Source of the DNA: Strigamia acuminata
Taxonomy: Eukaryota
Assembly (NCBI GenBank): GCA_949358305.1
Contig: OX442314.1
Span: 12,152,001 to 12,216,000, forward strand
Direction of reading: 5' to 3'
Length of the DNA stretch: 64,000 nt
The translations under genes and the position numbers were made by a program. This document shows positions 27,292-64,000 of this stretch, piece after piece; position 1 is the stretch's first letter, and every line of letters begins with the position of its first letter. The notes below the pieces were generated by a model. The model did no database searches and was not told the origin of the DNA. It was given only the letters and a program-made list of their open reading frames with translations.

Positions 27292-29944
27292 GTACTGTAA
27301 ATGTTGCACAAAAGAATTATTTGGAAAATAATAATAATTACTTATGATAAATAAGTTAGATTAAAGAAAGCGTATTATTGGTTATAATTGCTTCCGTAGT
27401 GTTAGGAAGCTTAATTTTTGACATTTGATTGAATGTCGTGGCATATCGTGTACTAATTGAGTTTCATGTTTTGCATTTTTTTTTCTCGCATACTTATTTG
27501 TAGATAAACAATCTGATTTGTTTAAACAATTTTAAAATAGGCATTTGCTGTGAGGGTAAAAAGTGTTATTGAAAAACTTTATAATGAACGTGGGATTTAA
27601 ATTTACAATAAACTATTACTGAAAGTGAGTTTGTGTTTTTCTCGAGTCTGAGTACAGTTGAGTCTCGTTATAACGGATCGGAAAGGACTAATTATATAAA
27701 TTTTTTTAACGGGTTGTATTTATTGGAACACTATTTATTCTTTCATTTTTACTAAAATTCCGTACTACTTTTTTTCACACTATTCTATTTTTTTTTCGCT
27801 TAAAATTACTTAATTCTGCACTAATGTTTACAATTGTGCCAACAGTGCCTTTTTGGCTTTAGCGCAACATCAAATTGCAAAGAGTATTGACCGCGGAAAT
27901 ACACTTTGCGACAGATGGGCTTCGCGGCCCAACACTGGAAGGTGTTGTTCCGTGAAGCCCACCTGTCCAGCAGACGTTCATCAAACAAGGCGATTTAAAA
28001 TATCGCGAAGTTTTGATTAGCGATTACCTTTTTTGTGGGCGATCAGTTTAAAAGATAGAAATTAAGAATCGTTGAAACAAAGAAATTGGAAAAGATTGTG
28101 ATTTGTAAGATACTCTGCACAAAATGTAACGAAATTTCAGGATAAATAATTGCTGTTACAACGCTGTTATTGAAGGCAATCGAAGTAATGGCTTAATCTA
28201 GAGATTCAAATTTTAAAAAAATCATACTAAAATATTTTGTGTTTTACTTCAATTTTAAACTCAAAATGACATCATTTACTGTTTAAACCCATGTTAAAAC
28301 TTAAAATACACTTAAACTACAACTCCTTGCAAAAAAATGGCATATCCTTATTTTAGAAACTTTTAATATTTGAAATTTCTCAGAAACTATTTCTCACAAG
28401 TAAAAATGGTTTTAGAAGGATTTAAAGGAATGTTAGAGCTATCATTTCGTTAAAAGTTTTTTGGAAAAAATGAATAGTTAAAGAGAAAAAAATTAAAAAC
28501 CCCAAAAAGTGACAATTTACAATATTTCTCATAACTTATAAACAGAATGAGATAAAATTAAAAACTAAACAGATTTGAGACCGTCTATATCCCAGGAAAC
28601 TTTTCTAAATTGGATGTATGAGTCTCCAAGGCCCTCAAAATGAGGCGTAATGGAGCTATGTAAAGGGATTGACAACAACTATTTTTCGAAAAATCGTGGC
28701 GAGCACAACTGTTGACAAATCAAAACGAAAATTTAGCATTGAAGCATTATTGTGTCGTACTATAACATGTTATAGTTATGACTTGATTCCTCCACAACGC
28801 AGCTGGAAAGTGCAAAAGTGTTTTTTTCAAGAAAATAAATGCGTTTTTAAAGCCCAAAAATGCATTTTAAAGTCCAAAAATGCAATTTTCAAGTCCAAAA
28901 ATGCAATTTTCAAGTCCAAAAGTCTCTTTTGCACTTTTTATGAGCAAAAATTGAGTTTTTGAGATTGAAAATTTATTCTAATTATCGCCTAACCATTTTG
29001 TACGCGGAGGGAATTTTAGTTCTGTCAATAGAGCGCGGGTGTTCTGCGAGAGCATTTACGTTATGGTAGTGTTAGTGTCAAATTTTTAAGTTGCATCTGT
29101 TTCATGAGCACATATCTCTTTTTCACAGTTTAAAAATTTCTTGGCAAGTGCATCTTTTTTCTGCGGTACAAAAAGCTCATCCATCAAATCTACAATTGTT
29201 TTTTCAAAAAATTGAATACTCACATCATTGGTGGATAAGGATTTCAATTAGTCAACAAATTTTGCGTGATAAATTTTTTGATATTTATTGTTCTACGGAT
29301 AAAAACGAATGCAAAGAAAGATTAAACTTAATTACCGCAGATAGTACTGAAAGCTTGAAATAAATAATGAATTTTGCCCCTATGGCGTTATTATTAAATA
29401 GCGGCAAATTCAATTCCAGTAAATTAAATACATAAATATAAAATGTTTATAAAAAAAAATATTTTATATTTTTGTTTATTATAGAAAATAAAGACAACAT
29501 TCTACACTTTAACACAATAAATGTGGGTTTGCTTCTTGCTGGTTTTGTGATAAGATCTTATTTTCTGGAATAACCAATAAAAATAAATTCTGTCCCATAA
29601 AAAGACTTTCACCAAAATGTAAAATAACAATTTCAAATTATGCCATTTCTTCCATAGATCTTTTAAATATTTAATTGTTGAAATCCAATGTTTATATCTT
29701 ACATAACAACATTAACTACACTCAACTACACTCAACTCAAGAAACTATGTAATTCAAGTGTACCATTATGCTATAACTACTAAACGAAATCTTATATTCT
29801 TCACTATAAAGACCAAATTATACCGACTTTGCATTTTTGATTACTTTGTTTAATCACCACTGGATTTAGCTCGTTTGAAATCCTGTACAAAAATAGTAAG
29901 AATTTATAAAAATTTATCTTATTCTGTTACTTCAGCCTATTAGA

Positions 29945-30790
29945 ATGATGCTGTCGATTTTCATAGTTGTTGCTCTTTCGACGCCATTTGCTGCAGCATA
30001 TGTAAGCTGAATGTATTTTTTTCAAACTTTCAAACTGTAAAATCTGTAAATACAATTTAATTTATTTTAGGAATGCTTCGATTCGGCGAAGTATATTGCG
30101 TCGGTTGTATTTCTTTGCTTATGCAATAACAAATTATATAATTAACTTATTGTTAAAAGTAAAATTTATTTTTCAGATTCACCATATTCATGAAGAATGC
30201 AGAGATGTTGTTCAAAAGGTGGTCCAAGATAGAAGTGTAAGTACTACACAGTTGGATGAACATATTTCTTGTTGTGTTTCTGCTTTTCAATTACAATTTT
30301 GTTTCAGGATTGTGGATTTGCTTACGTTATTTGGGGAATGTGTCATTATAGAGCCAGCAAAATTGTATGTCCAATTCAAGCGTTTAATAATTCGATTTTT
30401 GTCTTATAATTAATTTGCTTTTTATATGCAGAACAATAAATACCAGCAAATTGATCACACAAAATTTGTAGAGTTATTAAAATCGTTTTCCAGCAATCCG
30501 GTGAGTACTGCATGTTATTAAAATTCATAATTTCTCATAATATCCTTTTTGTACAACTGACTAACAGAATAAAGAGGCACTCGCGGTTAGACTTTCCGTC
30601 TGTGAAAAAGAGGGATTAATTCATGGAGGAGATGTAACTTAAAAACTGAACATGTTATGTATTTTCACTAATATTTTTTAAATTTCTACTTAAGTTTACC
30701 CCATACTTCGATTGCCTTCAACTGAGATGTCCCGAAGTGGGAAACATTCGAGTTGACTTCGACAACGCAGCACATGGAATTTGTGCATGA
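29945..30790 (+). CDS. Secreted 8-Cys small protein family (OBP-like?), copy A, 145 aa, 7 coding exons
   Basis: Exons 29945-30001, 30071-30103, 30177-30236, 30308-30364, 30432-30500, 30568-30633, 30695-30790, all phase-0 GT-AG: MMLSIFIVVALSTPFAAAY ECFDSAKYIAS IHHIHEECRDVVQKVVQDRS DCGFAYVIWGMCHYRASKI NNKYQQIDHTKFVELLKSFSSNP NKEALAVRLSVCEKEGLIHGGD FTPYFDCLQLRCPEVGNIRVDFDNAAHGICA*. TATA-like tataaa near 29807, 5'UTR intron 29896-29935, AATAAA after the stop. Confidence 0.9.
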
Positions 30791-30879
30791 GTGATGAATA
30801 AAATATAAATATAAGTAAAAATGACTGTACTGTATCCATTACAAAGAAATAAAAATATTTTCACACACGACCAGCCAGA

Positions 30880-31311
30880 AGGGTAGCCACATTTATTGTG
30901 TTTAAAGTGTAGAATTTGGTCTTTGTTTGAAATTTATAACAAAAATGAACAAAAACGTGCAATTAAATAAATACCGAATTAAATACATTTGTAGAATTAT
31001 TTTCGGTTGTTTGTTTTATAGAAATTTATTATTTAAAACACCCTAACACACGTTTTTTATGCTGAAGGTACAGTAAAGACCATCAATGCTCTTATTTCTA
31101 CACCCTCAAACAGCCCAAAGAGAGAGTGACCCCTCGTTTACAAAAATTACATCACTTCTGTACGGTAAAATATTTTAAAGGTTATATTCAAACTTGTATT
31201 AATTGGAGAAGTGCATTAAAAATGATTTATTGCATTTTTTTGTTTATTTTTGTTATAAAATTTCAAGTAAAGACAAAATTCTACACTCTTTTTTTATACA
31301 TATGCAACCCT
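30880..31311. mobile_element. Degenerate inverted-repeat element (MITE-like) between copies A and B
   Basis: About 80 bp of imperfect inverted arms (agtgtagaatttggtctttgtttgaaatttataacaaaaat vs its complement at 31245-31290). Confidence 0.5.
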
Positions 31312-31706: not shown

Positions 31707-32822
31707 TTATTCATCAATCGTACAAATTCCCCTTGATGCACGGTAGTAGTCATATCGAATACTGCTTATCTCTGGACACCGTACTTGAATGCAATCGAAG
31801 TATGGGTGAAGCTAGAGATTAAAAAAAAATATTAGTGAGAAGATAATACAATGTTCAATTTTTAAGTTACATCTCCTTCGTGAAAAAATATCTCGTGTTC
31901 ACAGTTGGCAAGTGCCCTGGTGAATGTATCTCTCTTCTGTTAGTTAAACAAAAAGGTTATCTATGAACAATTGTGAAGTTTTTTAAAAAATGCACTACTC
32001 ACTTTATTGACGGCAAAGAATTGTAATAATTCCATAAATTTTTTGTGATCGATTTGCTGGAATTTATTGTTCTGCGTATAAAAATCAAAGCGTAAACACA
32101 AATACACAGAATCGAATTATTAAAAGCTTGGCTTGGACTTACTATTCGGTACAGTCTATTATGACAAACTCCAAAAACGAAATAAGCAAGGTTACAATCC
32201 TGAAAAATTTAAATGAACAACAAAATTATAATTGAAAAATGAAAACACAACAAGAAATACCGTATTTTACAGATTAAGAGTTGCCCTCGAATTGTAGCCG
32301 CCCTCGAATAGTAGCCATGGCTGAGGCACCAAGAATACCGTATTTTTGCAAAAGCACGGTATTGTTTCCGTATTTAACCTCACGAATGTGCATTTTACGT
32401 TCGTGACGTTCGGACTTCGTTTGTTACATTAAACAAATGTAAGAAACGAAAAACCGAAATCGTAATTGATGACAAAAATGGCAGTTTTGAATAAGAGCCG
32501 CGGCTCTTAATCGCTAAAATAATACGGTGTATACTTAGGTAGGTCTTACACTTCTTGTTGTGACCAAATTTCTAACGATACGTCTGCATTCTATATGGAT
32601 CGATTGAACCTCAAAATAAATAAAATTAATTACTTAATGTGCCATTGTGTAAGCGAGATATGCAACCTGTCTCATATAATCCTTCGCATCGATGCAAACC
32701 TAAAATAAATTCATTGTATTTACAGATTTTAGAGTTTGAAAGTTTGGAAAAAACATTCAGTTTACATATGCTACAGCTTTTGAGGACTTTTCAACAATAA
32801 CTATAAAAATGTACAGAATCAT
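31707..32822 (-). CDS. Secreted 8-Cys family, copy B (degenerate signal peptide; possible N-terminal extension)
   Basis: MILYIFIVIVEKSSKAVAY VCIDAKDYMRQ VQSIHIECRRIVRNLVTTRS DCNLAYFVFGVCHNRLYRI NNKFQQIDHKKFMELLQFFAVNK KRDTFTRALANCEHEIFFHEGD LHPYFDCIQVRCPEISSIRYDYYRASRGICTIDE*; same exon structure as copy A. Confidence 0.85.
32258..32528. mobile_element. Tc1/mariner-like MITE in coding intron 3 of copy B (a related copy lies at 37903-38168 in copy C)
   Basis: taccgtatttt...gattaagag / ctcttaatc...aatacgg inverted ends; absent from the equivalent intron of copy A. Confidence 0.7.
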
Positions 32823-37375: not shown

Positions 37376-38721
37376 ATGATGCTGTGCGTTTTCATCATAA
37401 TTGCTGTTTCGACCTCATTTGCTGTAGCACATGTAAACTGAATGTTTTATTTTAAACTTACAAACAGAGCCGGATTTACGTATAAGTAAAATAAGCAGTT
37501 GCTTAGGGGCCCAAACCATCGGGGTCCCTTTGTCGCATATGTATTTATATTTATTATATATAAAGATATAATAATAAGTATATTTGTTAGATTTTTTAAG
37601 ACTAAACTTTTTTTTTGGATGGTGGGGGACCCAAACACTTTGTGCTTTGGGTAATACCTAAATCCGGCTCTGCTTTCAAAGTATACAATCAGTAAATACA
37701 ATGTTTTTTATTTTAGGACTGCTTCGATTCGCAGAAGTATATTGACAAGGTTGTGTTTCTTTTACTTACACAATACCACATTAACTTATTGTTAAAATAA
37801 AAATTTATTTTAAGGTTCAACCGATCCATGAAGAATGCAAAAAAGCCGTTGCCACTGTGGTCAAAGATAAAGATGTATGTATCTATATGTTGTTAGAACA
37901 TAACGTATTTTATCGATTAAGAGGCGCGACTCTAATTCAAAACTGCCGTTTTTGTAAGCAATTACAATTTCGGTTTTTCGTTCGTTACGTTTATTTAATG
38001 TAACAAACGAAGTCTGAACTTCACGAACGAAGCGTACGTTCGTGAGGTTAAATACGGAAACAATACCGTGCTTTTGCAAAAATACGGTATTCATGGTGTC
38101 TCAGCCGTGGCTACTATTCGAGGGCGGCTACAATTCGAGGGCGACTCTTAATCGGTGGAAGGCGGTATTTTTTGTTGTGTTTTTGCTTTTCAATTATAAT
38201 TTCGTTATTCATTTAAATGATTTAGGATTGTGACTTTTCCTATTTCGTCTGGGCAATTTGTCATACTAGAGCGTGCAACATTGTATGTCAGAGTAATTTT
38301 TTTTATACTTCGCTTTATGTCTTATGGTTGCTTTGCTTTTTGTTTGCAGAACAATAAATTCCAGCAAATCGATCACACAAAATATGTTGACTTATTAAAA
38401 CAATTTGCCGGCAATTTTGTGAGTGTTTCATTTGTCTTTAAATTTCACAATTGCTCATAGATAATCTTTTTTCACAACTGACTAACAGGTTAAAGACACA
38501 CTCGCCAATCGACTTGCCGTTTGTTCAAATGAGATTCTTATTCACGACGGATCTGTAACTTAAAAATTGGACCATTACTTAAAATATTTTACTAATATTT
38601 TTTTTTAAATGTCTAGGTTGCTCCATATTTCGATTGCCTTCAAAAAAGGTGTCCGGAAGTGGCAAATGTTCGAGCTGACTACGAGAACTCAGCCGAGGGA
38701 ATTTGTAAAGCACAATTATGA
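37376..38721 (+). CDS. Secreted 8-Cys family, copy C (ninth Cys in exon 4)
   Basis: MMLCVFIIIAVSTSFAVAH DCFDSQKYIDK VQPIHEECKKAVATVVKDKD DCDFSYFVWAICHTRACNI NNKFQQIDHTKYVDLLKQFAGNF VKDTLANRLAVCSNEILIHDGS VAPYFDCLQKRCPEVANVRADYENSAEGICKAQL*; all GT-AG, phase 0. Confidence 0.9.
37465..37672. mobile_element. hAT-type MITE in coding intron 1 of copy C
   Basis: TIR cagagccggattta / taaatccggctctg; 8-bp TSD cttacaaa/ctttcaaa. Confidence 0.85.
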
Positions 38722-40031: not shown

Positions 40032-43001
40032 TTAGTCGGATACATAGGCTCTCACCCCAATACCGTTGCAAATTCCCTTTGCTGACAGATCAAAATCTCT
40101 TCGATAGTTGACGAATTCCGGACAACGAATTTGAAGGCAATTGAAGTATGGCGTATCCTAGAGATTAAAAAAGTTATAGTGAAAGCACAAAATTGTTCAA
40201 TTTTTAGTTACATCTCCAGAGTGAGTAAACACATCCTTTGCACAGTCGGCAAGTTTCGTGCCAAGTGTATCTTTATTCTGTTAGTCAGATGTACAAAAAG
40301 GTTATCTGTGAGCAATAGTGAAATAGAAAAAAATCCAATACTCACTGTATTGATGGAATAGGATTGCAGCAGGCCTACAAATTTGTTGTGATCAATTAAC
40401 TGGTTTTTATGGTGCTGCGTATAAAAAACAAATCAATTGTCAGATCTAAACCGAATTATTAAAAGCTTGACTTGGACATACAATGTTCAGCGCTCTGTTA
40501 TGACAAACTCCATAAACGAAATAAGCAAAGTCACAATCCTGAAATATTTAAATGAACAACAAATTTATAATTGGAAAGCGGTAAGAGGCGGCCGTCCATA
40601 AATTAAGTAATGCACCAAGGGGGAGGATGTTTCAAATTTTGTTACGTTCCATGTAAAAAAAACTTTTTTAATTTTTAACCCTCAGATGGACAATCTGCAA
40701 TGACGACGCTTTGGTGCCCATAATGTACCAATTTGGGGACAAAATAATTAAATCCGGAAGGTCCGTAGCTGAAGCGCTGTTAGGGTAGTGTGACAAATTG
40801 TCGCACTTGGCGCTATTGTTTGGTTAAAAATATCAATTTTATTAAGTGCTTGTCTTGTTGTGTATATATGTATACATAGTAGTGAGAATGAATTGGGAAC
40901 AAATTTGGAACGAAATTGGAACGAAATTGGAACCGTAATCATAGCATATTCACTTGTGTTGGACTACTAGCGCCATACGGCGTCTGATAGTAAAAATTAG
41001 AAGCATTAACAAGGGGAGCACATGAATAAGACACTCACAGATTGTTGCAATATTAAACGTGAAGGATTGTTATATCATGCTGAAAGAGACCCTAAAATAA
41101 TTTCATTCCATAAACAGCCAACAATGTAAACAATGAGCTGAAAGTTTGCACTATTTTGTCTGTGCATTAATCCAATCTGAGCAATCAGGCCTACCGTCTT
41201 CCCCCGAATATAACACCATGGTGTTGTATTCGAGTTTTGCTCAAAATGGCAAGTTTGTAATTTGTAAACATTGATCAAAAATTCGAATATAACACCACTT
41301 CAGCTATAACACCATGGTGTTATATTCGAGTACATCCCCATGGTGTTATATTCGAGTTTTTAATTGTTTTCGAATACAATACCATGGTAGTGTATTCGAA
41401 TTTTTGGAAATGTATGAAAGACGTTCAGTGCGTACACTGGTAGCTTCCAAAACGCTACCAAAACGTGCACTGGATTTTACATACCGGTATTAAACATACA
41501 CATTTAACAGATTTTAGTTTATTTTTATTCTTGTTTTTGTTACTTCAAATAAAACACAAAAAAACTGTTTGTTTTTTCAATCACAGTTGTAAATACTCCG
41601 TACAAATTAAGAATTTTCTATTTTTTTACAAACTTACCTGTTATTTGACGAATACAACACCACGGTGTTATATTCGGGGGAAGACGGTAGTGTATGAATA
41701 CTGTAAACAGCAGTTGCTAGGTAAAAAATAGTTCCAAGATCCAAGTTGAATTTTATCACTTGATATTCAATGATGTCATTTCATCATTTGAGATTCAATG
41801 ATGTCATGACATGAAGACAATAATAGAAGACAATAATAGTTTGTAGTGGTGGTCCAGTGGTTAAGGCAATGGACTGGGTATCTTTCCACACATGTTCAAA
41901 TCCTGGTGTGTGTGTGAAAATTTTTACTTTTATTTTGTATTTATTTTTAGCCGTAATTTTAATGTTTGTAATTCATGCAGGCTAATTCATGTTGTAATTC
42001 ATGTTGGTGAACAAAGTTCTGATGTCATGACATCATTGAATCTCAAATGATGAAATGACATCATTGAATATCAAGTGATAAAATTCAACTTGGATCTTGG
42101 AACTATTTTTTACCTAGCAACTGTTGTTTACAGTATTCATACACTAGGCCTGATTGCTCAGATTGGATTAATGCACAGACAAAATAGTGCAAACTTTCAG
42201 CTCATTGTTTACATTGTTGGCTGTTTATGGAATGAAATTATTTTAGGGTCTCATTCAGCATGATATAACAATCCTTCACGTTTAATATTGCAACAATCTG
42301 TGAGTGTCTTATTCATGTGCTCTCCTTGTAAGTAGAAGCGCTTTTATTAGATTGGGAGAAGTCAACTTAAATTTAAGCTGGAATTTCTAAGGGGCAGAAT
42401 TTTCAAAGGTGAATAAAGAAAAAAAAACGTACAGAAAAAAAAAATTTTCTCATTCAAGAAGAGTGTTATCCCCAAAATGGTATAGGGTTGTCCTTCTGAG
42501 GGTTAATAATAAAAATATAAGTATTTTTTGTTTTTTGGAAAATTTGGAGGGGGATTTCAGTTTTGTTATGTAATTAGGGGTCATTAGGTTCGGGAATTTG
42601 TTACGACCATGTTACAGAGGGGGTTTAAAAATCCCAAATTTTGCGCTACATAATTTATGGACGGTCTCTAACACAACAAGAAATATGTTCTAACCAAATA
42701 TACTAGTAGGTACTTACAAATTTATCTTTGATCATAGCGTCAACGTCGGCTTTGCAGTCTGCATGCATCGTTTGACTCTTAAAATAAATTTTAGTTTTAA
42801 CAATAAGTTAATTACAGAATGTGCTATTGTGTAAGTAAAAAAATACAACCTCCTTAATCAACTTCTGCGAATCGAAGCATTCCTGAAATAAATAACATCG
42901 TATAGATTTTACAGTTTAAAAGTTTAAATACACATTCAGTTTACATAAGCTGCAGCAAATGAGGACGAAACTGCAATAACTAAGAAAATGCTCAGCATCA
43001 T
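40032..43001 (-). CDS. Secreted 8-Cys family, copy D (intron 3 expanded by nested elements)
   Basis: MMLSIFLVIAVSSSFAAAY ECFDSQKLIKE SQTMHADCKADVDAMIKDKF DCDFAYFVYGVCHNRALNI HHKNQLIDHNKFVGLLQSYSINT NKDTLGTKLADCAKDVFTHSGD DTPYFNCLQIRCPEFVNYRRDFDLSAKGICNGIGVRAYVSD*. Confidence 0.88.
41010..42328. mobile_element. Foldback-like element with ~300-bp inverted arms; left arm interrupted by a Tc1-like MITE (~41193-41687)
   Basis: caaggggagcacatgaataagacactcac... mirrored at 42021-42328; TAA duplicated relative to the empty site in copy F (agcac-taa-gtag). Confidence 0.85.
41843..41912 (+). pseudogene. tRNA-Ser-like remnant (Pol III A and B boxes) in the loop of the foldback element
   Basis: gtagtggtggtccagtggttaaggcaatggact...gttcaaatcctg resembles tRNA-Ser gtagtcgtggccgagtggttaaggcgatggact...gttcgaatcctg; anticodon arm and acceptor stem are broken. 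Confidence 0.6.
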
Positions 43002-43304: not shown

Positions 43305-44630
43305 TTTCAATTTCTGGACATCGTTTTTGAATGCAACTGAAGTATAGGCGAAGCTAGAGACTTAAAAAATATTAGTCAAAACGAAATTATGTTCAATTTT
43401 TAAGTTTCATCTCCTCTGTAAATAAATCTCTTGTATACACAGATAGCAAGTCTCTTGGTAAGTGAATCTTTTTTCTGTTAGTGATATGAAAAAGTTCTCA
43501 ATGAGCAATTGTGACATTAAAAAAAATGTACTCTCAGCTTTTGTAGAAAAAGATTTTAATAATTCCACAAATTTGGTGTGATCGATTTGCTGGTATTTAT
43601 TGATCTGCATTAAAAAACAAAGCATAAATACAAAGTGACGCATAGACATATTGGATTACCCTCATTTTAAGCGGCATGCCGGTGTACGTGAAATTACCAA
43701 CTTTTGGAAAATTTAGTTATGAAGTTTATACTGGTTTTAAAAACACCCAGATGAATAAGTACGTTGAAATTTGGGCCAGAAATTTGAGTTTTCTAGATAC
43801 AGTTGAATCTCGTTATAAGTTATAACAAACTGCGATATAACGAATAGTTAAAAATGGCTTGGTTGGTTGGTTAGCCATAGAATACCATGTTAAAAAAATT
43901 TGATATAACTGTTGTTATACTGTCACTTACGAACCGTTTTAACGAAGCTTGACTGTATTCTATAGGTTATTATAAAAATTTCTGTAAATTTTTAGAAATT
44001 TACGCCAATTTCCTACTGTTTGGATATCTAAAAATGAGTTATAAGCTTGTTTTAGTTCATTACTCCTTAAAAAAAATTCGTATCCATTTATAACGACATG
44101 CTGGTAAAAATGGGGTTTATCGGCCCGAGCTACATGGGTATGGCGCTCGAAGCGGGGTAATACCGTATTATAAATATTATAAATATTCTAAATACTCGGA
44201 CACACCATGCCACACTTTCTATAATGACAAACTCCATAAATGTAAAAAACAAAGTTACAATCCTGAAACATTTTAGTGAACAATAAAATTATAATTGAAA
44301 AGCAGTAACACAAGAAATATGTTCATACAACTGCATAGGAACTTACCTTATTTGCACTGCCGGTAGCCAAAGATTTAATGGCAAGTCTGCATTCTTCATG
44401 GATCGGTTGAATCTTAAAATAAATTTTTTGTAATTTTACTTAATTTGTTATTGTGTATACAAAGAAATACAACCAACTTAATAAACTTGTGCGAATTGAA
44501 GCAATCCTAAAATAAATTACAATGTATTTACAGATTTTGCAGTTTGAAAGTTTGAAATGCACATTCAGTTTACATAAGCTGCAGCAAATGAGGACGAAGC
44601 AGCAATAACGATGAAAATAAACAACATCAT
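43305..44630 (-). pseudogene. Secreted 8-Cys family, copy E, probable pseudogene
   Basis: MMLFIFIVIAASSSFAAAY DCFNSHKFIKL IQPIHEECRLAIKSLATGSANK DCNFVFYIYGVCHYRKCGM INKYQQIDHTKFVELLKSFSTKA KKDSLTKRLAICVYKRFIYRGD LRLYFSCIQKRCPEI. Donors of introns 5 and 6 are GA, exon 7 is truncated into the copy D upstream region, and the promoter is cut by an LTR. Confidence 0.82.
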
Positions 44631-47969: not shown

Positions 47970-48758
47970 TTAATCTCATTTAATAATTCCGAAATATCTA
48001 ATCCCAAGGTGTCTAGTTTTAAATCCCACACTATCCCCAAAACTTTAGTTTACTTTTGAAAGGTCTTTACGTCACAATTCGGGTCATCTTTCACAATTAT
48101 AGTTTGGAGTTTCATATTGTTCGTTTTCCATTTCACAAGTTTCATATTCGCTGCTTGTAGAATCTCTCGACTCTAATTGTAAGTTTGCACTAACTCGTTT
48201 GAATTGTTCGCATTTGTCACAAAATCATCTACACATAAATCTTCTTTTAGTTTATCACAATTTTCGGGGTATTGTTCTTCAAATTGGTCGACGTGTTCTT
48301 TGATTGTCGCATTTAACAAAAATGGGCTGAGATCTGTCCCAAATGGAGTTTGACACAATTCAACTAGTTTTACCGACTCTTCACCGTTCCACCCGTTGTA
48401 GTGTCCTCGATCCAATAAAATCGTGTGATGTCTCGTTCGTCCATCTTGAGATGTACAGTATTTGATGGAAGGCCTTCTCGATATCGCCGATTGCGCCATA
48501 TTTGCCGGTTCGGCACTTCAAAACAATGTTTATTAGATGAGGTAACATATTCGGGCCTTTACTCAGACAGTCGTTTAGCGACAAACATCCTTTTGCGTGC
48601 GATGACGCATCGTAAACAATTCGCAACTTTGTTGTGGCTCGAGTTTCATCAATTACTGGTCGATGAGGGATATAATACGGGTTGTCTGGCTTTGAGTTCT
48701 TTGGCACCTTCTCCACAATTCCGGAAATCAGTTGTTCGTCTATTACTTTCTTGTATTC

Positions 48759-51496
48759 TAACTTTACTCTACTTTACCTGAATGCCCGCTCACTGTTGCC
48801 CAAAATTGACGATGTCACTGGTCTCGCCAATATTCACTCCCCCAATATTCTTATTATCACTGAAACTTGGCTGTCTCCTGATTGCCCCGACAATATTCTC
48901 AATATCCCTGGGTACACGATCATTCGCTCTGATCGCCCCACAACTGGTGGCGGAGTGGCTCTCTACTCAAAAAGCACCAATAACATTTCCTCTATCATTA
49001 CTAACCAATTGGAGGGCACCGAGTTGCTCTCATGTATTCTATCCTTGAATGGTATCCCCCTCCAAATTATTGTTATTTATCGCCCCCCCCCATCGCTCCC
49101 TAACCCAGGTCCTTGATCTCATCAATGAAGTTATCACCCCTCGTACAAACACCTTAATTGCGGGTGACTTTAACTACAACTTCCTTCCTCATAACCCTGA
49201 TAATACGGTTACGAATTACATGAGATGCATTAACTTAGCCCCAGTAATCGAATCTCCCACCTGAGTTACGGTTAACTCGAAGACATTAATTGACCAAATA
49301 TTCCTTACGAAAGAAATCACGCATAATCCTTGCCACTTAACTGATTTCGACCGTCTGGATCACAAAGTCGTCTTTCTGTCCATCAACCTACCAAAACCCC
49401 CTGCTCCCAACCCTCCCCGACTCAACCGGCATTATTCCTTCAGGAACTGTAACTGGGTCGATATTAATAGAGCCATCTCATGCGTTGATTGGCAACCCCT
49501 TATTGATTTCCCAGACCCTAACACAAAATTAACCATTTTCTACCGCACTGTAATTGACATTCTTACGAAATTTACCCCACCTCCCACTCACCCACAATAA
49601 ACCAAAACATTGGTGGACGGCAGAATTAACTAGGCTCCAAAAAATTAAAACCAGTGCCTACCGTCATCAGCACACGCACCCTGTTAATTACAAGATTGCC
49701 AGCAAACATTTCAAGGCCATGGTCAAGCGGAATAAGCGCTGGACCGTCATGGCATCCAAAAACTTTTGGCGTCTTGTCAAAACTCACACGACAGTGACAG
49801 ATCTCCCCACCTCACCAACCGCGTGTGCAAACTACGCGAAATTCTGCGACAACCCCCTCGGCATCACAAATTCCAATTATAATGCTAACACGGTGCACCC
49901 CCTCCCCACTTTTCTTAACTTTGAGCATGTCACGCCTGCTGACATTATTCTGGCCACCCAAAAAGTTAACTTGTCCTCCAAACATTCCCAGGATCGGATC
50001 CCGGGTGTTGCCATCAGAAACATACTCCCAGCCATTCTCCTCCCACTTACTAACATCCTCAACTCAATAATTGACTCTTCCATCTACCCAACTGTGTGGA
50101 AACATGCTGCTGTTACCCCAATCTTCAAAGGGGGTGACAAGCAATTAGTGTCTAACTTTAGACCTATTTCTTCTCTACTCCCGTTGAGCAAGATTGCGGA
50201 TCATTGCATTCTCATGCAGATTCGCCCTACCCTCGCCCGCCATTCCCCCCACACCCAATATGGTACTCGCCCAGGCTCCAGTGCCCTCCTGCTCATTGGT
50301 TTCCTGTACCTTGACATCACTCACTCATGTGATCAAGCTAACACACTCTATCTGGCTAAAACTGATGTGTCAAAGGCATTTGACACCCCCCCTCAGGATT
50401 ACGTCTTAAATAGCCTCCAGGACCATTCCATTGGCCCCGAACCAGTTAAGCTTTTTTCCTCTTATCTATCCGACCGGACCTTTCATGTCACCTTCGATAC
50501 GGCCCAAATTGACTTCCCCATCACACGTGGTGTCGTACAGGGCACTACCACAGGTACTATGCTGTACAACTCGGTAGCAGAGCCTGTTCTGTTCCTCCCA
50601 CTAGTGTCCCGTATTCGGTCTTATGTTGATGATAACTTCTTGACCCAGTCCATCACCACCGGCCATGAACCCCCCGTCCAAACACAGTTCACCCCGGACC
50701 TTGCGTCACTGGCTAAATGGTACGCGGCCCATGACATGACTCTCAACCAAAACAAGACTAAGACTATAATATTTAGGAGACCTTTGAGAGCAGTGACACC
50801 TTATCCTAGCAAACAAATCACTGTCCTGGGGCTCATCCTTGACCCCCACTTAACTTTCGCACCCCATATCCGCCATATTGTCAGATTCCTCACCCGGTCG
50901 TTATTTATAATTAAACACCTCAGAAAGGTACTGTCGAGACCAGAAATGATCTTCTACATAAAGACGAAGATTCACCCTACTATTACGTATGCCTCCCAAT
51001 ATTGGAATTCCACCGCTCGCAGATTCAAGGTCCCGCTTGCAACTGCATATAATGCCGTTATTCGAGTTGCGATCAACCGTCCCGGCCGTAATCACATCAC
51101 TCCAGTATGCAACGAATTTGACCTCCTGAATTTGGATAACCTTCTCCGCCTTCACGACATCACAGCAATCGCTGATACTGTCCGAAATGTGGACCATCCA
51201 GCCCATAATATCGCCACGCATTACCAGTCAGATGTTGACGCCCGCCTGCCTCGTCGCCATTGTTTTGAAGTCACCACTCGGCAGTCCACCTACAGGAGTA
51301 ACACGTTCCCTTATCGGTGTACCCCCTCTGGAACGACCTCCCAAGCGACTTGAGATCATCGATATTCGACTGCACAGCGTCCTGTTGCCGCTTCCACTGC
51401 CGGCACTTACACAAACGAGTGGGCAACTACCTCCTCAACCAACAAAAAACTGTCTAATTCCTACCTTGTATTTACTCCACCGGAGTGTTTTCTCAA

Positions 51497-51531
<35 letters not shown>
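48759..51531 (+). mobile_element. 5'-truncated non-LTR retrotransposon (APE + RT ORF2, CR1/L2-like) inserted in BEL RT
   Basis: YLNARSL, ITETWL, GGGVA, YRPP, AGDFN, IDQI, DH; RT motifs FRPIS, DVSKAFD, GVVQG, YVDD; 3' (TAAA)n tail; frameshifts and stops in the endonuclease part. Confidence 0.95.
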
Positions 51532-51768
51532 ATTTGGGATTCTTGCAAAAACGGTTAATCAAACTCCACAAACGCTTTTTTGCAACATCTCGATTGTCGC
51601 TCAATTCCTTGCGATCGATCTTGCACGCTAGTCCACCCACTCGATTTGTTCTTTGAATCGCTTCAATGTGTCCACTTCGTCGATTCCGGGTTCCATTGTT
51701 TTATGACGAATCCCAATTGTTTCCAAGTTCCAAAAGTTCAAAGATAAAAAGTTTGTTTGTATTATTGG

Positions 51769-53916
51769 TAGACCCCGGATAAATGCATAAATGCATACTT
51801 CATATGTATTTTGCATATTTAGCCGAAATTGGCTTATATTGCATATTTTCCGAAAATTGAAAAATAAATGCATACAGGATGTATCAGAATTCATGTTACA
51901 CAGAAATAGGGAGTATAGAGAGGGACCAGGAGATCACGTTTCCACGAATCAAAAATTCCAAAAAAAATTTCTCATTTTGTTACAACCCCAAAAACAATGG
52001 AAGATTTCAAATATCGTGCCTTACACATATTGCCAACATTTGCCAGGTGCTGCGATCCGGGTTTTTATCACACTTATTTCTAATAAATAAGCGTGAAACC
52101 GCAGGTGAATGCTTTAAAAGACTTATATCGCGGCCGAAAATTATCTAGGGTTAATTTTAAGAGAGAGAAATAAAAAGACAGTTTTATCAATTCAAATGAA
52201 CACTTTTTATTACAATAAATACAATGATATATGAGAATATATGAGAAATATCACAAATGCGACAAGTCGCGAAATAATGAGACTGTTGCAAGCTAAAAGC
52301 GCTAAAATGGCGCTTAACAACACGAAGTTGTTGGACGAAGACGGTTATCTTTGTTATTCGACTCACGAACGATGGTCCTGCGACGATGGTTCTCGTGGGT
52401 CCTTCTGGAGTACGTACGACGGCTCGGCGGCGGTGGTTCACGACTTCAGGCGTCCGGTCAGCGTATGATGGCTTCGGCAAGTGTTCGCGCACTTGCAGCG
52501 GCGATGGTTCACGATGAGCGCGGGAACTTCTACTTCTCGATAGCTGAAATTAGCGTCGGCTAATTTAAGCTGGATAGCTGGCTTTGTGCGTTGGTGCACA
52601 AAGATAGCAAGGTGAAACTTGAAGAACACGGTCCACTGTCAATACGAATTGTCGGAGCAAAAACGCAGTGATATTGTGGGTTGTGTATTATTTTCAAGAG
52701 TCCCGATTGAAGCTAGGGCGCGAGCCCGGCACGCTTCGATATTGCGCAGATAATCTGCACAATTAGCTCAAACTGGTGCAACAAAGGATTATTGCACCAT
52801 AACGGTGAATTGCCGTTTTCACCCCGGACAACCTGGGGTGATATGTGCCTAGAGAGGATTTCTCTCCTCGGTCACATGATCTGACTTGGCGTGTGCCACA
52901 ATCAAATTAATTAGAAGACACAATTAATTTATCTTCTAAGTTGGTGAAATATTTTGAGATCACCACACAGGTTAAAGCGTAATTCTCAAATAAAAAGACA
53001 CAATCGGTAGCCAACAGCAGAAGTTTATTACAAAAGATGCTCTACATGTCCAACATGTGCATCAATGCACAGCTTGGTAAATAATTTAAGGAAATTAATC
53101 TTTTACATAAATGATTTGTTTTAGTTTTCCCGGATTTATGGGTTTTTTGTGATTCTTTAACATTAAAATGATAGGTTTGTATCTTTTTATTTGAGAATTG
53201 CGTTAAAACCTGGCAAATGTGGGCGATATGCGTGACGCAATATTTGAAATCTTCCATTGTTTTTGGGGTTGTAACCATGTAAGAAATTTTTTTTGGAATT
53301 TCTGATTAGTGGAAATGTGATATCCTGGTCCCCCTCTATACCCCCTGTTTCTGTGTAACATGAATTCTGATACACCCTGTATATTGCCATTTTTTAAGGT
53401 ACGAATATGATATGTACTGTCTGTTGTGATATGTTTTGTTTACGTATCACTGTTTCCGTATTTAAATAGCACATGCACGTGCATTTTAGTATAATTTGTT
53501 TGAAACAATGCCGAAAGTTGTCAATTAAAAATGTATGTTAATGAAATTGACAAAAACACATTACGAGTAGAATGTGATTTTATTTTCTGTGTTGTCTGTT
53601 CGGCTGCAATTGGCGAAAGTGGTAAACCCCCAAAGAAGTTTCAAGTTAGACAACATGTTAAAACCATTCTACATATTAAAAACAAGAACAAAGTCACTAC
53701 CGTTCAACCCAACTTAGTACTGTCGAATCTACAACCACGGTTTTATCACACAGCACTTAGAAATGGCACTAATTTGTTATTGCAATAAATGATTTCACTG
53801 AAATAAATTTTTTTTATTTTGCATATTTCACTTTTTTTTTTGCATATATTGAAATTTTTGGTGCATATTATATGCGCATATAACAAAATTTTTTTTGCAT
53901 ACATATCCGGGGTCTA
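51769..53916 (+). mobile_element. Non-autonomous hAT-like element with a zinc-finger transposase remnant, inserted in BEL
   Basis: TIR tagaccccggata; 8-bp TSD attattgg/attatcgg; remnant MPKV...FCVVC...KKFQVRQHVKTILH at ~53508-53690. Confidence 0.82.
51875..53379. mobile_element. Tc1/mariner-like non-autonomous element with ~170-bp TIRs, nested in the hAT-like element
   Basis: ta-cagg(a/g)tgtatcagaattcatgttacacagaaa... mirrored at 53207-53379; TA TSD. Confidence 0.85.
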
Positions 53917-56303
53917 ATTATCGGTAACAATCACTTTATTTACCCGCACCAAGGACGACATTATTGTTTCTGGTTTCCCAGCTGATCCATGCAGTGTCCA
54001 GCCATCAAGTTTTCATCAATTCGCTATTGTTTTCCTGTTGTAACCCGCCAAAAATTGTCGACACCGATCAAAATGGACACTCCATCGTCTCGTTGAACGT
54101 TGCTGTCATGGGTTAGTTTAATGTCGAATTTTCTTAATTTGTCCATCATCTGCTCATTCGGTTTTCCACGTACGGTCGGCATGATCCAGGGTGATTCGAG
54201 GGCTTCGATTTCTAAGCTACAATGCCTATTATCACAATTATTTAGGTTTAACTTCACCTGGTTTCTTTTGGCAATTGTTGGTTCAGTGGATCCGAAAGTC
54301 AAGAGGGCGATAAATTGTTCACCAGTTTTTTCTAGTTGTAATTCTCGAGACAGTTTTTCTGTTATGAAACTTCTTTGGGAGCCTCCATCCAAAAAGCATT
54401 GAACCTTTCTCTTCTTGTTGCTTCCGTTTGCTTCTAGAACGACGACCTGCATGAACATCATGGTTTCCGTAGCTGTAGACTCTTGCACGGTTGAAGTCAA
54501 AGTTGTTTCTGTTTTCTTGACGTCCTCTTTATCGCACAGGTACGTATGGTGTTTCTGTTTGCATTCCCTACATTTAAATCGTGTATTGCATTGACGAGCT
54601 TGGTGATTTTCTTTTAAACATCTGTAGCAGCGACGTGCTTTAAAACACGCTTTTTTCCGCTTCTCAACCGACAATGAACAGTCCGGACTCTTGTGGTCTT
54701 CTTTTTTGCAAAATGTGCATTTGTAGACAATGTTGGAGAGAGCTGAAGCGGAACTTGGATTATTAGATTTATAGTTTGTTTTCTTTACCTCTTCTTTCTT
54801 GTTATTGGTGGTTTCCGTCGACTCTTGCTGTATTTTGTTGATTTTGTCTGTGGCTTCCGTACGCTCCCTCATCGCGACCTCGAATCTGAAGAAATCAAGA
54901 AATTCTTGTACTTTCCACTGCGAAACTCCTCGTGGACGCGCAAAATCGTGCTGGATACTGTTTGGTACAGCATGTGCTAATATTGGGCACAACAATGGTC
55001 CGAAGGTTTCCGCAGGTACGCCGAGGTTTTTGAGACTTTTGATGTGGAGGTCGCAAAAGTCGTATAGCTTCCGTAACGCCGTTATATCCTCCGCTCGCTT
55101 CACTGGTTGCATCTCGAGGAGTTTGGCCATGTGTGCACCTACAATCTATTCTTTTTGACCAAAACGATTAGTTAAAAGTTCTATTGCAGTGTCATAGTTG
55201 AGTTCCGTCACGGTGAGCCCGCTAATTGCGTTTGCTGCGAGGCCTTCAACGAGCGAGCGCAGGTACACAAATTTGGCGGTTTTAGGCAAAGAAGCGTTAT
55301 TATGGACGCTCAATTCAAAGTCCGACCAGAACCCCGTCCAGGTTTTTGGCGTGCCTTTAAATTTGGCGATCTCGAGCTTCGGCAGTTTCATCACTGCGGT
55401 TGAACTGGATTCGGGTTTGGGTTTGGGTTTGGGTTTGGTACAGGTGGAACGAAACGAGGGTTAACTTGTGGTAAATTTACGAGTGGTACTTGCGGTGGTT
55501 GTTTCATTTGTGCGAGTTCTTTTAAGGTGACTTCGAGTGTGATTCGGGTGGCGGTCATTTCGTCTTGCAGTTCTTCCGCTTCAAATTTGTTGGTCCATCT
55601 CATTCACGTCGGTGATTCCGTCGGCGATTATTGTGTCCAGTTTATCGATTTTCAAACGTTTTGTGATTAGTTGGGCTTGCATGCATAATAATCGTACCTC
55701 GTTGAGAGGATCCTCGGCCATTTCTTTCGTCAATTTCGCAAAAAGCAAACGCACGCTTCTTCTTTGTGTTTCCCTTTGTGCACGACTTCTTGCCAAATCG
55801 TCCATTTTTGCGTTCTGGTTCGTATTTAAGAATAAATCCCGGGTTTTGGCACCATGAGACGTTGCACAAGCAACTTGTATGAAATGATTTAACTTAAAAC
55901 GGTTTAAAACGACGGATGGAGTCGGATTCAGATTGATTATTGCGTACTCGAGAAATGATGTAGACAGGGTTACATTTGAAAGAAAAGTGTAAATTTTATT
56001 CAAATTTGAGTATATAAAGGCAAAGGGATTAAGATAATCCCTAAATTCCAAGAATACATTAATCCGGGTCACCGTAACCACATGGTAAACACACAGAATG
56101 AAAGTATTTTGTGTTCTAAACGCGAAGTAAAGGTATTTAATAGTTAAAAACAAGAAAATATAAAAAACTACGTTTTTGGGAAAAGGGTTTTATTTTGGTG
56201 CTTCAAACCGCTTCCAGAGTGCGCTACTACCCCAGATTTTTTTGTGATTGGTGTAAATTCTCCATTGGGGCCTCGAAGTCATACTGTGGGACCATAAGTG
56301 ATA

Positions 56304-59384: not shown

Positions 59385-59469
59385 ATGTAGAGCATACAGT
59401 ATTTTAATTGATTTTTAATGGATAAAATACAGCCGTTTTTATTTATAACTCAATACTCTATTTTTTTCA

Positions 59470-61121
59470 TTAGTCGTATACCATAGCTCTCACCCCAATA
59501 CCGTTGCAAATTCCCTTTGCTGAGATATCGAAATCTCTTCGAAAGTTGACCATTTCCGGACACTTAATTTGAAGGCAATCGAAGTATTGCGTATCCTAGA
59601 GATTAAAAAAGTTATAGTGAAAGCACAAAATTGTTTAATTTTTAGTTACATCTCCATAGTGAGTAAACACATCCTTTGCACAGTCGGCAAGTTTCGTGCC
59701 AAGTGTATCTTTATTCTGTTAGTCAGATGTACAAAAAGGTTATCTGTGAGCAATAGTGAAATAGAAAAAAACCCAATACTCACACTATTGATGGAATAGG
59801 ATTGCAGCAGGCCTACAAATTTGTTGTGATCAATTAACTGGTTTTTATGGTGCTGCGTATAAAAAGCAAATCATTTGTCAGATCTAAATTGAATTATTAA
59901 AAGCTTGACTTGGACATACAATGTTCAGCGCTCTGTTATGACAAACTCCGTAAACGAAATAAGCAAAGTCACAATCCTGAAATATTTAAATGAACAACAA
60001 ATTTATAATTGGAAAGCAGTAAGAGGCGGCCGTCCATAAATTAAGTAATGCACTAAGGGGGAGGGTGTTTCAAATTTTTTTTACGTTCCAAGTAAAATTT
60101 TTTTTTTAATTTTTAACCCTCAGTTGGACAATCTGCAAAGACGACGCTTTGGTGCCCATAATGTACCAATTTGGGGACAAAATAATTAAATCCGGAAGGC
60201 CCGTAGCTGAAGCGCTGTTAGGGTAGTGTGACAAATTGCCACACTTAGCGCTATTGTTTGGTTAAAAATATTAATTTTATTAAGTGCTTGTTTTGTTGTG
60301 TATACATAGTAGTGAGAATGAATTTGGAACGAATTTGGAACGAATTTGGAACGAAATTGGAACGAAATTGGAACCGTAATCATAACATAATCACTTGTGT
60401 TGGACTACTAGCGCCATACGGCGTCTGATGGTAAAAATTAGAAGCACTAAGTAGAAGTGCTTTTATTAGATTGGGAGAAGCCAACTTAAATTTAAGCTGG
60501 AATTTCTAAGGGGCAGAATTTTCAAAGGTGAATAAAGAAAAAAAAAGTACAGAAAAAAAAAATTCTCCCATTCAAGAAGAGTGTTGTCCTCAAAATGGTA
60601 TAGGGTTGTCCTTCTGAGGGTTAATAATAAAAATATAAGTATTTTTTATGTTTTTTGGTAAATTTGGGGGGGGATTTTAGTTTTGTTACATAATTCGGGG
60701 TCATTAGGTTCGGGAATCTGTTACGACCATGTTACAGAGGGGGTTTAAAAATCCTAAATTTTGCGTTACATAATTTATGGGCGGTCTCTAACACAATAAG
60801 AAATATGTTCTAACCAAATATACTAGTAGGTACTTACAAATTTATCTTTGATCATAGCGTCAACGTCGGCTTTGCAGTCTGCATGCATCGTTTGACTCTT
60901 AAAATAAATTTTAGTTTTAACAATCAGTTAATTACAAAATGTGCTATTGTGTAAGTAAAAAAATACAACCTCCTTAATCAACTTCTGCGAATCGAAGCAT
61001 TCCTGAAATAAATAACATCGTATAGATTTTACAGTTTAAAAGTTTAAATACACATTCAGTTTACATAAGCTGCAGCAAATGAGGACGAAACTGCAATAAC
61101 TAAGAAAATGCTCAGCATCAT
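59470..61121 (-). CDS. Secreted 8-Cys family, copy F (recent duplicate of D)
   Basis: Exons 1-3 identical to D; exon 5 ends INS, exon 6 ends HYGD; exon 7 DTQYFDCLQIKCPEMVNFRRDFDISAKGICNGIGVRAMVYD*. Confidence 0.9.
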
Positions 61122-62359: not shown

Positions 62360-62850
62360 TGGAGTCACACTGAGCGCGATGCGACGCGAATCGCATCGCC
62401 ACCACGTGACAAGCGATTGCATCGCCATCGCTAGGCGAATCGACCATCTATTTGGCTATTTGGCTATTTCGCCACATCTGGTGATGAGAAATGAAAAGTG
62501 CTGACGTCACGATGATATTTGGAACACACTATTGTGATCTAAAATGGAGGATGATGAGTAATTGGCTATCAGCATCGTATCTTAAAATTCAAAGCAAAAA
62601 AGATTATAGATGATGGTGGGTTCATCTAATACTGCAGGGCCGAAACAGAATTTGACAGAGGGGCGCCGCGAAATATTTCAATATTCCAATAACTGATGAG
62701 ATCGCACCAAGAAGACTCGATTGAACGCACCCAGACGTCATCCAAAAGTTACGAGACTTGCGTAGAAGCATACGACACATTACATGAATTTTTTTTGGGT
62801 TGACGCGAAAAAATTTTAAAACATTAAGTGCGCCGTGAACAGAAAAAGGT
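62360..62850 (+). mobile_element. Possible PIF/Harbinger transposon 5' remnant
   Basis: ggagtcacactgagcgcgatgcgacgcgaatcgcatcgcc terminus-like sequence followed by broken frames with R.WWVH.I...R...G; heavily decayed. Confidence 0.4.
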
Positions 62851-63939
62851 TGGGAATCATTGGATTTGGATATTCTACACTTTATTGCCAGTAATGCAAC
62901 AAGATGATGTCGATCTATACCAAAAGTAATATTAAAACTTTGTGTGGTAAACAATTTGGCAACATTTTCCCCTCCTTTTGTTCATAGTTTGTATCTTGTA
63001 GTCACTTTTCAAACACCTCTTGTTCTATTGCCATTCATTCCAACAATGTTTTCATTCCAGCACATGTGTTTATTTTTTTTTTTAAAAAAAAAAACAGAAA
63101 AAAATAAATCAAATCTGTGACTTTGCTCTCAGCCAATCAGGTGAGATTTGGTCTCACCGAATTATTGGCTACGAGCAAAATCGCAGACCAAAATAGTACT
63201 GGTTGCATGTACTATCAAAACTATCAAACTATCATCAGACATGTAATGAAAATGTCTTCATTCTCTCCTCCTTATCATGAAACAAATTAAAAAAGAGCCA
63301 GCAAGACAACACCCAATATCTGTATGACTCTGCATTTCTGCAATTAGTCAAAGTAAAAAATTCAACTAGAAATGAAAAGTGTTTTGTTCCTAAATTTAAC
63401 AAATTTAAATAATGATTTCTTTCTATTTTAGCACAGGACTCCATGTGGCGATTAAAAAGCAATGAAAAATAAATATATCGGTAAGGTATATGTTTTATAT
63501 TTATTTAATGAAGAATATAAGATTTCATTTTGGTTGTTAACACCAGTCGCAATTCTGGCGTGCATGTTTGGGATGGATGCATGCAGCATCCAGCATTCAA
63601 TAGGATGCTAATCCCCTTAATCATGTAGTGTATAAATGTAACCTTGTACAGGTCGAACCTCGCTGTTACGAACAGGTTGTGGGAGCAATGAATGATTCGT
63701 ACTAGCGAGAGTTCTTACAACGAGTATTTCGTTAGAATGAATTAGTTTGTTATAACAAGAAATTTCGGAAACATGAACCCTCTTTATTATTCCCATTGGG
63801 TGAGTATAATAGTTTGTTGTTCACCCGGAATACAACTTGATGAAGGATAAAATGTGACGAATAAATAATCACCGTTACATAAGCTTACATGATTGATATG
63901 GAACGTATTTTAATTGCTTTGTAATGGAATACAGTAACT

Positions 63940-64000
63940 TTACTTAAGAAATGTCTTCCATATATCATCACCGGTATCATAACAAATTCCCCTTGCTGAC
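63940..64000 (-). CDS. Secreted 8-Cys family, copy G, 3' end of last exon only (continues beyond the window)
   Basis: SARGICYDTGDDIWKTFLK* matches the S.(R/K)GIC ending of the other copies; the flank at 63770-63930 matches the downstream flank of B, D and F. Confidence 0.75.
   Translation of the reverse strand, partial: SARGICYDTGDDIWKTFLK

What the first reader, a model, noticed from the sequence alone, without database searches (positions are those of the whole stretch)
29800..64000. Hidden array of at least seven genes for a small secreted 8-cysteine protein, built from phase-0 micro-exons (OBP-like candidate)
Seen in sequence: copies A(+), B(-), C(+), D(-), E(-, broken), F(-) and G(-, partial). 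The six complete copies share a 5'UTR intron and seven coding exons of about 19/11/20/19/23/22/31+ codons, all phase 0. They encode a 19-aa signal peptide and C-x16-C-x13-C-x9-C-x41-C-x16-C-x4-C-x17-C. Most exons are under 70 bp, so the ORF track misses the family. The Cys frame and the motifs IDH.K, YF.C.Q.(R/K)CPE and GIC are conserved while intervening residues vary strongly. Inference: Cys 2, 4, 5 and 6 (x23, x41, x16), the ID..KF..LL helix start, the ~145-aa size and phase-0 introns recall minus-C odorant-binding proteins and arthropod OBP-like carriers, here with two extra putative disulfides. A venom, defence or gland secretory role is also possible. I do not recognise a named family.
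Basis: partly seen in the sequence, partly recalled or inferred. Interest (0 to 1): 0.88.

Follow-up and report, generated by a model that had tools for sequence, protein, structure and literature searches.

The report
Centipede odorant-binding-like gene array
A centipede genome carries a tandem row of five intact and several broken spliced genes for small eight-cysteine proteins of the already catalogued Strigamia "odorant-binding-protein-like" family; they are likely secreted carriers of small oily molecules, and their coding sequence fits rapid adaptive change.

Summary
The array is real. Five copies have intact frames (A, B, C, D, F), not six. E and a further remnant Z are broken, G is only a 5' leader remnant, and H runs off the window. 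All 30 coding introns are GT-AG and phase 0; the eight cysteines are invariant. The host is a Strigamia centipede. The family is not unnamed: a profile of the five spliced proteins hits S. maritima T1IQ96 at 142 bits, whose C-terminal part is SmarOBPl2_4 of the published Obp-like set (PMC5952958 supplement). A low-confidence model of that homologue is all-helical; its top match among 48,161 PDB chains is Varroa OBP1, weakly (Z 5.8). Six cysteines fit the Varroa frame; one pair is extra. New here are correct gene models and a signal of positive selection (about a quarter of codons, omega 3-4.5). Expression, tissue and ligand are untested; no RNA holder was listed. The scan noted a similar array on other DNA (e1-9829261). 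Verdict: new members of a known kind.

The parts
28165..29314 (-). Remnant Z: exon 5 (29292-29224, in-frame stop), exon 6 (29160-29095), frameshifted start of exon 7 (about 28197); 5' half absent
29945..30790 (+). Copy A, intact frame, 145 aa. Exons 29945-30001, 30071-30103, 30177-30236, 30308-30364, 30432-30500, 30568-30633, 30695-30790
31707..32822 (-). Copy B, intact frame, 148 aa; signal peptide interrupted by charged residues. Exons 32822-32766, 32699-32667, 32609-32550, 32199-32143, 32071-32003, 31936-31871, 31811-31707
37376..38721 (+). Copy C, intact frame, 148 aa, one additional Cys. Exons 37376-37432, 37717-37749, 37815-37874, 38226-38282, 38350-38418, 38489-38554, 38617-38721
40032..43001 (-). 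Copy D, intact frame, 155 aa; intron 3 (2179 nt) holds an inverted-repeat element. Exons 43001-42945, 42882-42850, 42777-42718, 40538-40482, 40414-40346, 40277-40212, 40157-40032
43308..44630 (-). Copy E, broken: exons 1-4 look intact, donors of exons 5 and 6 are lost, exon 7 is cut and abuts the upstream region of D
44836..56071 (-). BEL/Pao LTR retrotransposon (LTRs 98.6% alike over 219 nt, frames broken) with a nested non-LTR element, lying inside the array
59470..61121 (-). Copy F, intact frame, 155 aa, recent duplicate of D (145 of 155 residues identical). Exons 61121-61065, 61002-60970, 60897-60838, 59976-59920, 59852-59784, 59715-59650, 59595-59470
63391..63538 (-). Remnant G: upstream and 5'UTR-exon homology only; no coding exon found behind it
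63940..63999 (-). Copy H: end of the last exon with the GIC motif and a stop; the rest lies beyond the window

Best explanation
This is a tandem array of spliced genes homologous to the published Strigamia OBP-like proteins, which likely encode secreted helical carriers, predicted to have a Varroa-type OBP fold and to bind small hydrophobic molecules, most likely in a gland or reproductive secretion rather than only in sensory lymph. Shown: gene anatomy, homology, invariant cysteines, birth and death of copies, and a codon-model signal of positive selection. Inferred: exon 1 is a cleaved signal peptide; Cys21-126, 38-62 and 104-121 pair as C1-C6, C2-C3 and C4-C5 do in Varroa OBP1; the extra Cys52 and Cys144 tie an added C-terminal helix to the helix that carries Cys62; the helices enclose a hydrophobic cavity. 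The non-sensory site is the weakest step and rests on the fast evolution and on precedent.
For: Profile of the five spliced proteins against S. maritima T1IQ96 residues 1317-1459: 142 bits, E 1e-36; BLASTP 36-46% identity over 141-149 columns for 5 of 5 copies. That stretch is SmarOBPl2_4; SmarOBPl2_3 and 2_2 show all eight Cys by eye. Model of the homologue: six helical segments in OBP order plus a C-terminal helix; rank 1 of 48,161 chains is Varroa OBP1 7nyj (Z 5.8, rmsd 6.0, 112 aligned, ends in register) and 4 more of the 50 rows are insect OBPs; 2 of 13 Foldseek rows are OBPs. Varroa Cys at 21/41/68/111/132/141 give x19, x26, x42, x20, x8 against x16, x23, x41, x16, x4 here. First intron in phase 0 at the signal-peptide end, as in insect OBP genes (PMC2722677). 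M1a/M2a 2dl 17.5-24.8 under four codon models, largest of 51 null simulations 5.3, 16-18.5 without D or F. [quoted passage not shown]
Against: The fold match is weak: pTM 0.42, Z below the level the tool calls meaningful, and the single-sequence model gave no OBP match. No Pfam family, PBP_GOBP included, at E up to 10 for the homologue, and no OBP by sequence in the PDB. The published OBP-like label came from iterative profile searches, and its authors allow convergence. Varroa OBPs bound ligands only moderately. The selected sites are no more polar than the rest (p = 0.65), so they do not point to pocket or surface. No expression or ligand data. Five paralogues are few, and undetected gene conversion or multi-base mutation can inflate site tests.
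Confidence: 0.6

Rival explanations
1. The same OBP-like proteins work as chemosensory carriers in antennal or other sensillar lymph, a centipede counterpart of the insect OBP expansion.
For: PMC5952958 suggests this role for the 21 S. maritima Obp-like genes; the animal is blind and has large GR and IR families but no canonical OBP (PMC4244043); clustered OBP genes in both orientations are typical of insects.
Against: No tissue data. Overall omega near 0.9 is far above what I recall for antennal insect OBPs (recalled, no call). Spider OBP-like genes are expressed broadly.
Confidence: 0.22
2. The fold is used as a scaffold that binds no small ligand: a structural or bioactive protein of the sticky sternal-gland defence secretion or of the spermatophore, diversifying in an arms race.
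For: Positive selection and fast turnover; geophilomorph defence secretions are proteinaceous, sticky and in some families cyanogenic (PMC6023451); Varroa OBPs are poor binders.
Against: No secretion proteome of Strigamia sternal glands was found in one search (4 papers listed). The selected sites are not enriched in polar positions. 33 non-Cys columns stay strongly hydrophobic, which fits a core or pocket equally.
Confidence: 0.1
3. The proteins are forcipular venom components.
For: Secreted, cysteine-rich, tandem, fast-evolving, with introns as conserved as exons or more; OBPs occur in some insect venoms.
Against: The family list of the centipede venom study has no OBP family; the S. maritima venom peptides whose alignments I saw (CHILOTX01, GEOTX02) are short and unrelated, and the family motifs were not found in the held part of the supplement. 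The supplement is cut; GEOTX01 and Unchar05 sequences were not seen.
Confidence: 0.04
4. The family is not OBP-derived; the cysteine pattern converged and the published label is a profile-drift artefact.
For: No Pfam or PDB sequence match; fold scores within the range of generic helical bundles.
Against: The best of 48,161 chains is the one non-insect OBP named in advance, with ends in register; SmarOBPl2_5, modelled on an insect OBP in PMC5381604, shares the N-terminal CFD motif and core cysteines by eye.
Confidence: 0.04

Closest known systems
Strigamia maritima Obp-like proteins SmarOBPl2_3 (SMAR001808), 2_4 (SMAR003207, within UniRef T1IQ96), 2_6 (SMAR012987); more distant 2_1, 2_2 (PMC5952958 supplement)
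   Same: Signal peptide, eight-cysteine frame and the same motifs; 36-46% identity to 2_4, near the 43-59% among the window's older paralogues.
   Different: The public models are faulty: 2_4 is a chimera fused to Sushi/Ig and SET-MYND genes in a 1527-aa record; by eye 2_3 lacks part of exon 5 and 2_6 lacks exon 7. The window looks like a congener, not S. maritima itself.
Varroa destructor OBP1 (PDB 7NYJ), chelicerate OBP-like fold
   Same: Six-cysteine frame with similar spacing; best, though weak, structural match.
   Different: One more cysteine pair and a predicted extra C-terminal helix; 10% identity; chelicerates keep 1-4 copies, this genome an expanding array.
Insect Minus-C and Plus-C OBPs (PF01395, accession recalled)
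   Same: Size, helical prediction, core cysteine positions, phase-0 intron after the signal peptide, clustering.
   Different: No C2-x3-C3 or C5-x8-C6 pair; no Pfam hit; eight cysteines.
GOBP-class proteins of the Lithobius forficatus telopodal defence secretion (PMC11170834)
   Same: Centipede OBP-type proteins in a non-sensory secretion.
   Different: Longer, with another cysteine pattern (by eye); not this clade.

Membership tests
Myriapod/chelicerate OBP-like (Vizueta 2017, 2018), SmarOBPl2 group | BLASTP or profile match at E < 1e-5 over two thirds of the length to a listed member | tested here: met
   5 of 5 intact copies against SmarOBPl2_4: E 3e-23 to 1e-36 over 136-144 residues; profile 142 bits; criterion
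Myriapod/chelicerate OBP-like (Vizueta 2017, 2018), SmarOBPl2 group | Conserved cysteine pattern lacking insect C2 and C5 | tested here: met
   Core spacing x23, x41, x16 matches Varroa x26, x42, x20; seven Cys align with T1IQ96 and all eight with SmarOBPl2_3 by eye
Myriapod/chelicerate OBP-like (Vizueta 2017, 2018), SmarOBPl2 group | N-terminal signal peptide | tested here: met
   Hydropathy only, no SignalP: best 11-residue window 2.7-3.3 in residues 1-19 against at most 1.8 in the mature part, 5 of 5 copies; B's is doubtful
Myriapod/chelicerate OBP-like (Vizueta 2017, 2018), SmarOBPl2 group | Predicted OBP-type helical fold | tested here: inconclusive
   Homologue folded as proxy: pLDDT 63, pTM 0.42; Varroa OBP1 rank 1, Z 5.8, rmsd 6.0, 112 aligned; the other model gave generic bundles
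Varroa-type OBP fold | Disulfides C1-C6, C2-C3, C4-C5 | not testable with these tools
   Inferred from spacing only; the tools report no bond geometry
Insect classic and Plus-C OBPs | C2-x3-C3 and C5-x8-C6 (Plus-C: near variants plus extra Cys) | tested here: not met
   Spacings are x9 and x4 at the nearest positions; pattern from PMC2722677
Insect Minus-C OBPs | Fewer than six cysteines | tested here: not met
   Eight invariant Cys; definition from PMC3428353
Insect OBPs (PBP_GOBP domain) | Pfam domain hit | tested here: not met
   0 families at E up to 10 for the 132-aa homologue and for 17 of 17 single exons; the spliced proteins themselves were not scanned
OBP-type carriers | Binding of small hydrophobic ligands | not testable with these tools
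   Needs recombinant protein
Centipede venom protein families (PMC6878950) | Presence in the venom proteome or homology to a listed family | tested here: inconclusive
   No OBP family listed; CHILOTX01 and GEOTX02 unrelated; supplement cut, GEOTX01 and Unchar05 unseen

The most novel reading that the evidence does not exclude
Earth centipedes have recruited an eight-cysteine OBP-fold subfamily with an added, disulfide-locked C-terminal helix into their sticky, cyanogenic sternal-gland defence (or into reproductive secretions), where it carries aromatic nitriles or aldehydes, or builds the glue, and diversifies in an arms race: the first OBP-like expansion outside insects tied to defence.
Probability: 0.2. 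Interest if true: 0.62.

Novelty: new member of a known kind. Interest (0 to 1): 0.3.

Why it matters
The S. maritima Obp-like expansion was called surprising and in need of study (PMC5952958), yet its public gene models are truncated or fused. This array gives clean exon structures, a testable disulfide map and a first hint that the expansion is driven by positive selection. That makes the open question, whether myriapod OBP-like proteins serve smell or secretion, directly testable. It is not a new family.

Tried and rejected
No whole genome is held. RNA search: no RNA holder listed, 2 runs of unknown kind that carry introns; no evidence either way on expression. Word-based homologue searches with exon-7 and exon-5 alignments: 0 of 57 and 0 of 81 candidates at E up to 10. 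Metagenome scans: 0 relatives among 54 pattern matches, 0 DNA pattern matches. Full profile search: 3 hits, of which P0002 is real and P0003, P0004 are repeat artefacts that the whole-protein profile does not score. ESM Atlas: nothing usable for exon 7 or for the homologue. PDB sequence searches with four exon profiles and the homologue: only chance-level rows. Single-sequence fold: pTM 0.47, no OBP among 40 Foldseek rows shown or 50 VIA rows; Varroa OBP1 not listed, which does not exclude it. A 33-row exon alignment was misaligned and not used; the 13-row one covers exons 2, 6 and 7 only. Idea that selected sites face outward: not supported (p = 0.65). Gene conversion among A-D: not detected, low power (28 informative sites, p = 0.23). 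Idea that the Pao element caused the D/F duplication: rejected, as its LTRs (98.6%) are more alike than the D/F units (93-97%). Decayed exons behind G: none found. Schistosome-type micro-exon gene system (recalled): rejected, since exons are 33-126 nt and skipping would remove paired cysteines.
Full report
Observation. A scan of every AG-to-GT phase-0 candidate exon against copy A recovered the family exon by exon. Five copies give an open frame: A (+, 145 aa), B (-, 148), C (+, 148), D (-, 155), F (-, 155). Pairwise identity is 43-59%, and 94% for D/F. E keeps exons 1-4 but has lost the donors of exons 5 and 6 and is cut in exon 7. Z (28165-29314) is a 3' remnant with a stop and a frameshift. 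G is a leader remnant with no coding exon behind it. H is the tail of another copy at the window edge. So nine loci are visible, five intact. Controls: 6 pattern matches against 0 in 100 shuffles; random substitution keeps all 8 Cys in at most 0.15% of trials. Two public runs hold the DNA; 52 and 47 contigs lay on the 1.2 kb of copy A, 28 in each under 90% alike, and summed depth near exon 2 is about 20 times that of the single-copy contig. The tool warns that this is no copy number; it hints at more copies outside the window. No RNA holder was listed, so splicing is inferred.

Host. A neighbouring frame is 98% identical to S. maritima actin maturation protease, but its upstream exon differs at several residues (by eye). 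The host is a Strigamia centipede, probably a congener of S. maritima.

Identity. Vizueta et al. 2018 (PMC5952958; passages; supplement parts 3 and 4 of 153 and searches; figures not seen) list 21 S. maritima Obp-like genes. Five of the six in their group 2 (2_1 to 2_4, 2_6) show this family's motifs by eye, and 2_2 and 2_3 show all eight Cys. An exon-5 profile then fetched P0002, UniRef T1IQ96 of S. maritima, a 1527-aa fused model whose last 211 residues are SmarOBPl2_4. A profile of the five spliced proteins scores it at 142 bits, E 1e-36; BLASTP gives 36-46% identity for 5 of 5 copies. This passes the paper's own membership threshold. The family is therefore known, though its public models are truncated or fused, and the genome paper found no canonical OBP (PMC4244043 passages).

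Fold. The spliced window proteins were not folded; residues 1335-1466 of P0002 served as proxy. Its last Cys comes from the chimeric junction of that model, so it cannot test the extra bond. Alone it gave pTM 0.47 and only generic bundle matches. With 12 exon rows (exons 2, 6, 7) it gave pLDDT 63, pTM 0.42 and helices 6-31, 38-53, 61-74, 81-99, 102-112, 116-128. Foldseek found nothing at E 0.001, but 2 of 13 weak rows are insect OBPs (Z 3.8 and 3.1 on realignment, below two unrelated chains). This is weak support that gains from having been predicted. Varroa OBP1 pairs Cys 21/141, 41/68, 111/132 (PMC8222343 passages). The window's Cys 21, 38, 62, 104, 121, 126 fit that frame; I infer bonds 21-126, 38-62, 104-121 and an extra 52-144 that fixes an added C-terminal helix. 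Pfam gives no family, and the insect C2-x3-C3 and C5-x8-C6 pairs are absent, so these are not classic, Plus-C or Minus-C insect OBPs as defined (PMC2722677, PMC3428353 passages).

Evolution. Overall omega is 0.9. Short introns differ at 20-32% of sites and exons at 25-34%. My own codon-model script gives M1a against M2a 2dl = 24.8, 21.6, 19.2 and 17.5 under four parameterisations, with 23-26% of codons at omega 3.5-4.5; the largest of 51 null simulations is 5.3. Dropping D or F, or the signal peptide, leaves 16-18.5. Exons 2 and 3 have pooled omega 3.3 and 2.5, on low dS and without correction for six tests. Against over-reading: five sequences, no multi-nucleotide model, a weak conversion test (p = 0.23), and no polarity bias of the selected sites (p = 0.65). 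D and F differ at 20 coding bases, 16 of them in exon 7. Transposons sit in introns and spacers; a BEL/Pao element lies between E and the F unit with unlike flanks and no target-site duplication, which suggests a later rearrangement there.

Function. Best reading: secreted OBP-fold carriers of small hydrophobic molecules under birth-and-death evolution. I lean to a gland or reproductive secretion because of the selection signal, the broad expression of spider OBP-like genes (PMC5381604 passages) and the GOBP-class proteins in the Lithobius defence secretion (PMC11170834 section 7 and supplement file 2 rows; another clade). Geophilomorph sternal secretions are proteinaceous and can be cyanogenic (PMC6023451 passages). 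An antennal role remains the main rival. Venom is unlikely: the centipede venom study (PMC6878950 passages and a cut supplement) lists no OBP family, and the Strigamia peptides I could see are unrelated; GEOTX01 and Unchar05 were not seen and could bear on this.

Novelty. New members of a catalogued family. Searches (8, 6, 5 and 2 papers listed) showed no paper on the eight-cysteine subgroup's gene structure, selection or expression; I read only the passages named above. The scan's note e1-9829261 (seen after I had found the supplement) reports a similar array in another genome with the same closest family; it describes an insect-type extra pair, which is not the pair seen here. Interest 0.3.

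Noticed in passing
window 44836-56071: BEL/Pao element with 98.6% alike LTRs, broken frames and a nested non-LTR element (RVT_1 frame 49554-51353). Its two flanks do not match and are not contiguous in the paralogous unit, and it cuts E's upstream region about 200 nt before the ATG.
   Followed up: partly
window 41009-42329: Inverted-repeat element in intron 3 of D (185-nt arms, 99% complementary) with a second inverted-repeat pair inside; absent from F.
   Followed up: partly
window 32260-32521 and 37906-38170: The same high-copy miniature element sits in intron 3 of both B and C.
   Followed up: no
window 57506-58812: FLYWCH and MULE transposase fragments upstream of the F unit's 3' flank.
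   Followed up: no
window 59470-59595 against 40032-40157: 16 of the 20 coding differences between D and F lie in exon 7, while exons 1-3 are identical: conversion of the 5' half or fast change of the C-terminal helix.
   Followed up: partly
intron 2 of all copies, e.g. window 30104-30176: Intron 2 has the weak donor GTTG in 6 of 6 copies; the 33-nt exon 2 carries the first Cys, so its junctions most need RNA confirmation.
   Followed up: no
window 1800-26730: Compact gene row left of the array: a Ras-family GTPase, an Img2 mitoribosomal protein and ACTMAP (Pfam); kynurenine monooxygenase-, FYVE-, Pinin-, mitochondrial carrier- and AKT-like genes (labels recalled, read by eye).
   Followed up: no
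P0002 (UniRef T1IQ96): The public S. maritima record named 'MYND-type domain-containing protein' fuses Sushi/Ig, SET-MYND and parts of about three OBP-like copies, which hides the family from annotation.
   Followed up: yes
window 18629-19006: Tandem array of 42-nt units, 91-97% alike in the core, inside the ACTMAP gene region.
   Followed up: no
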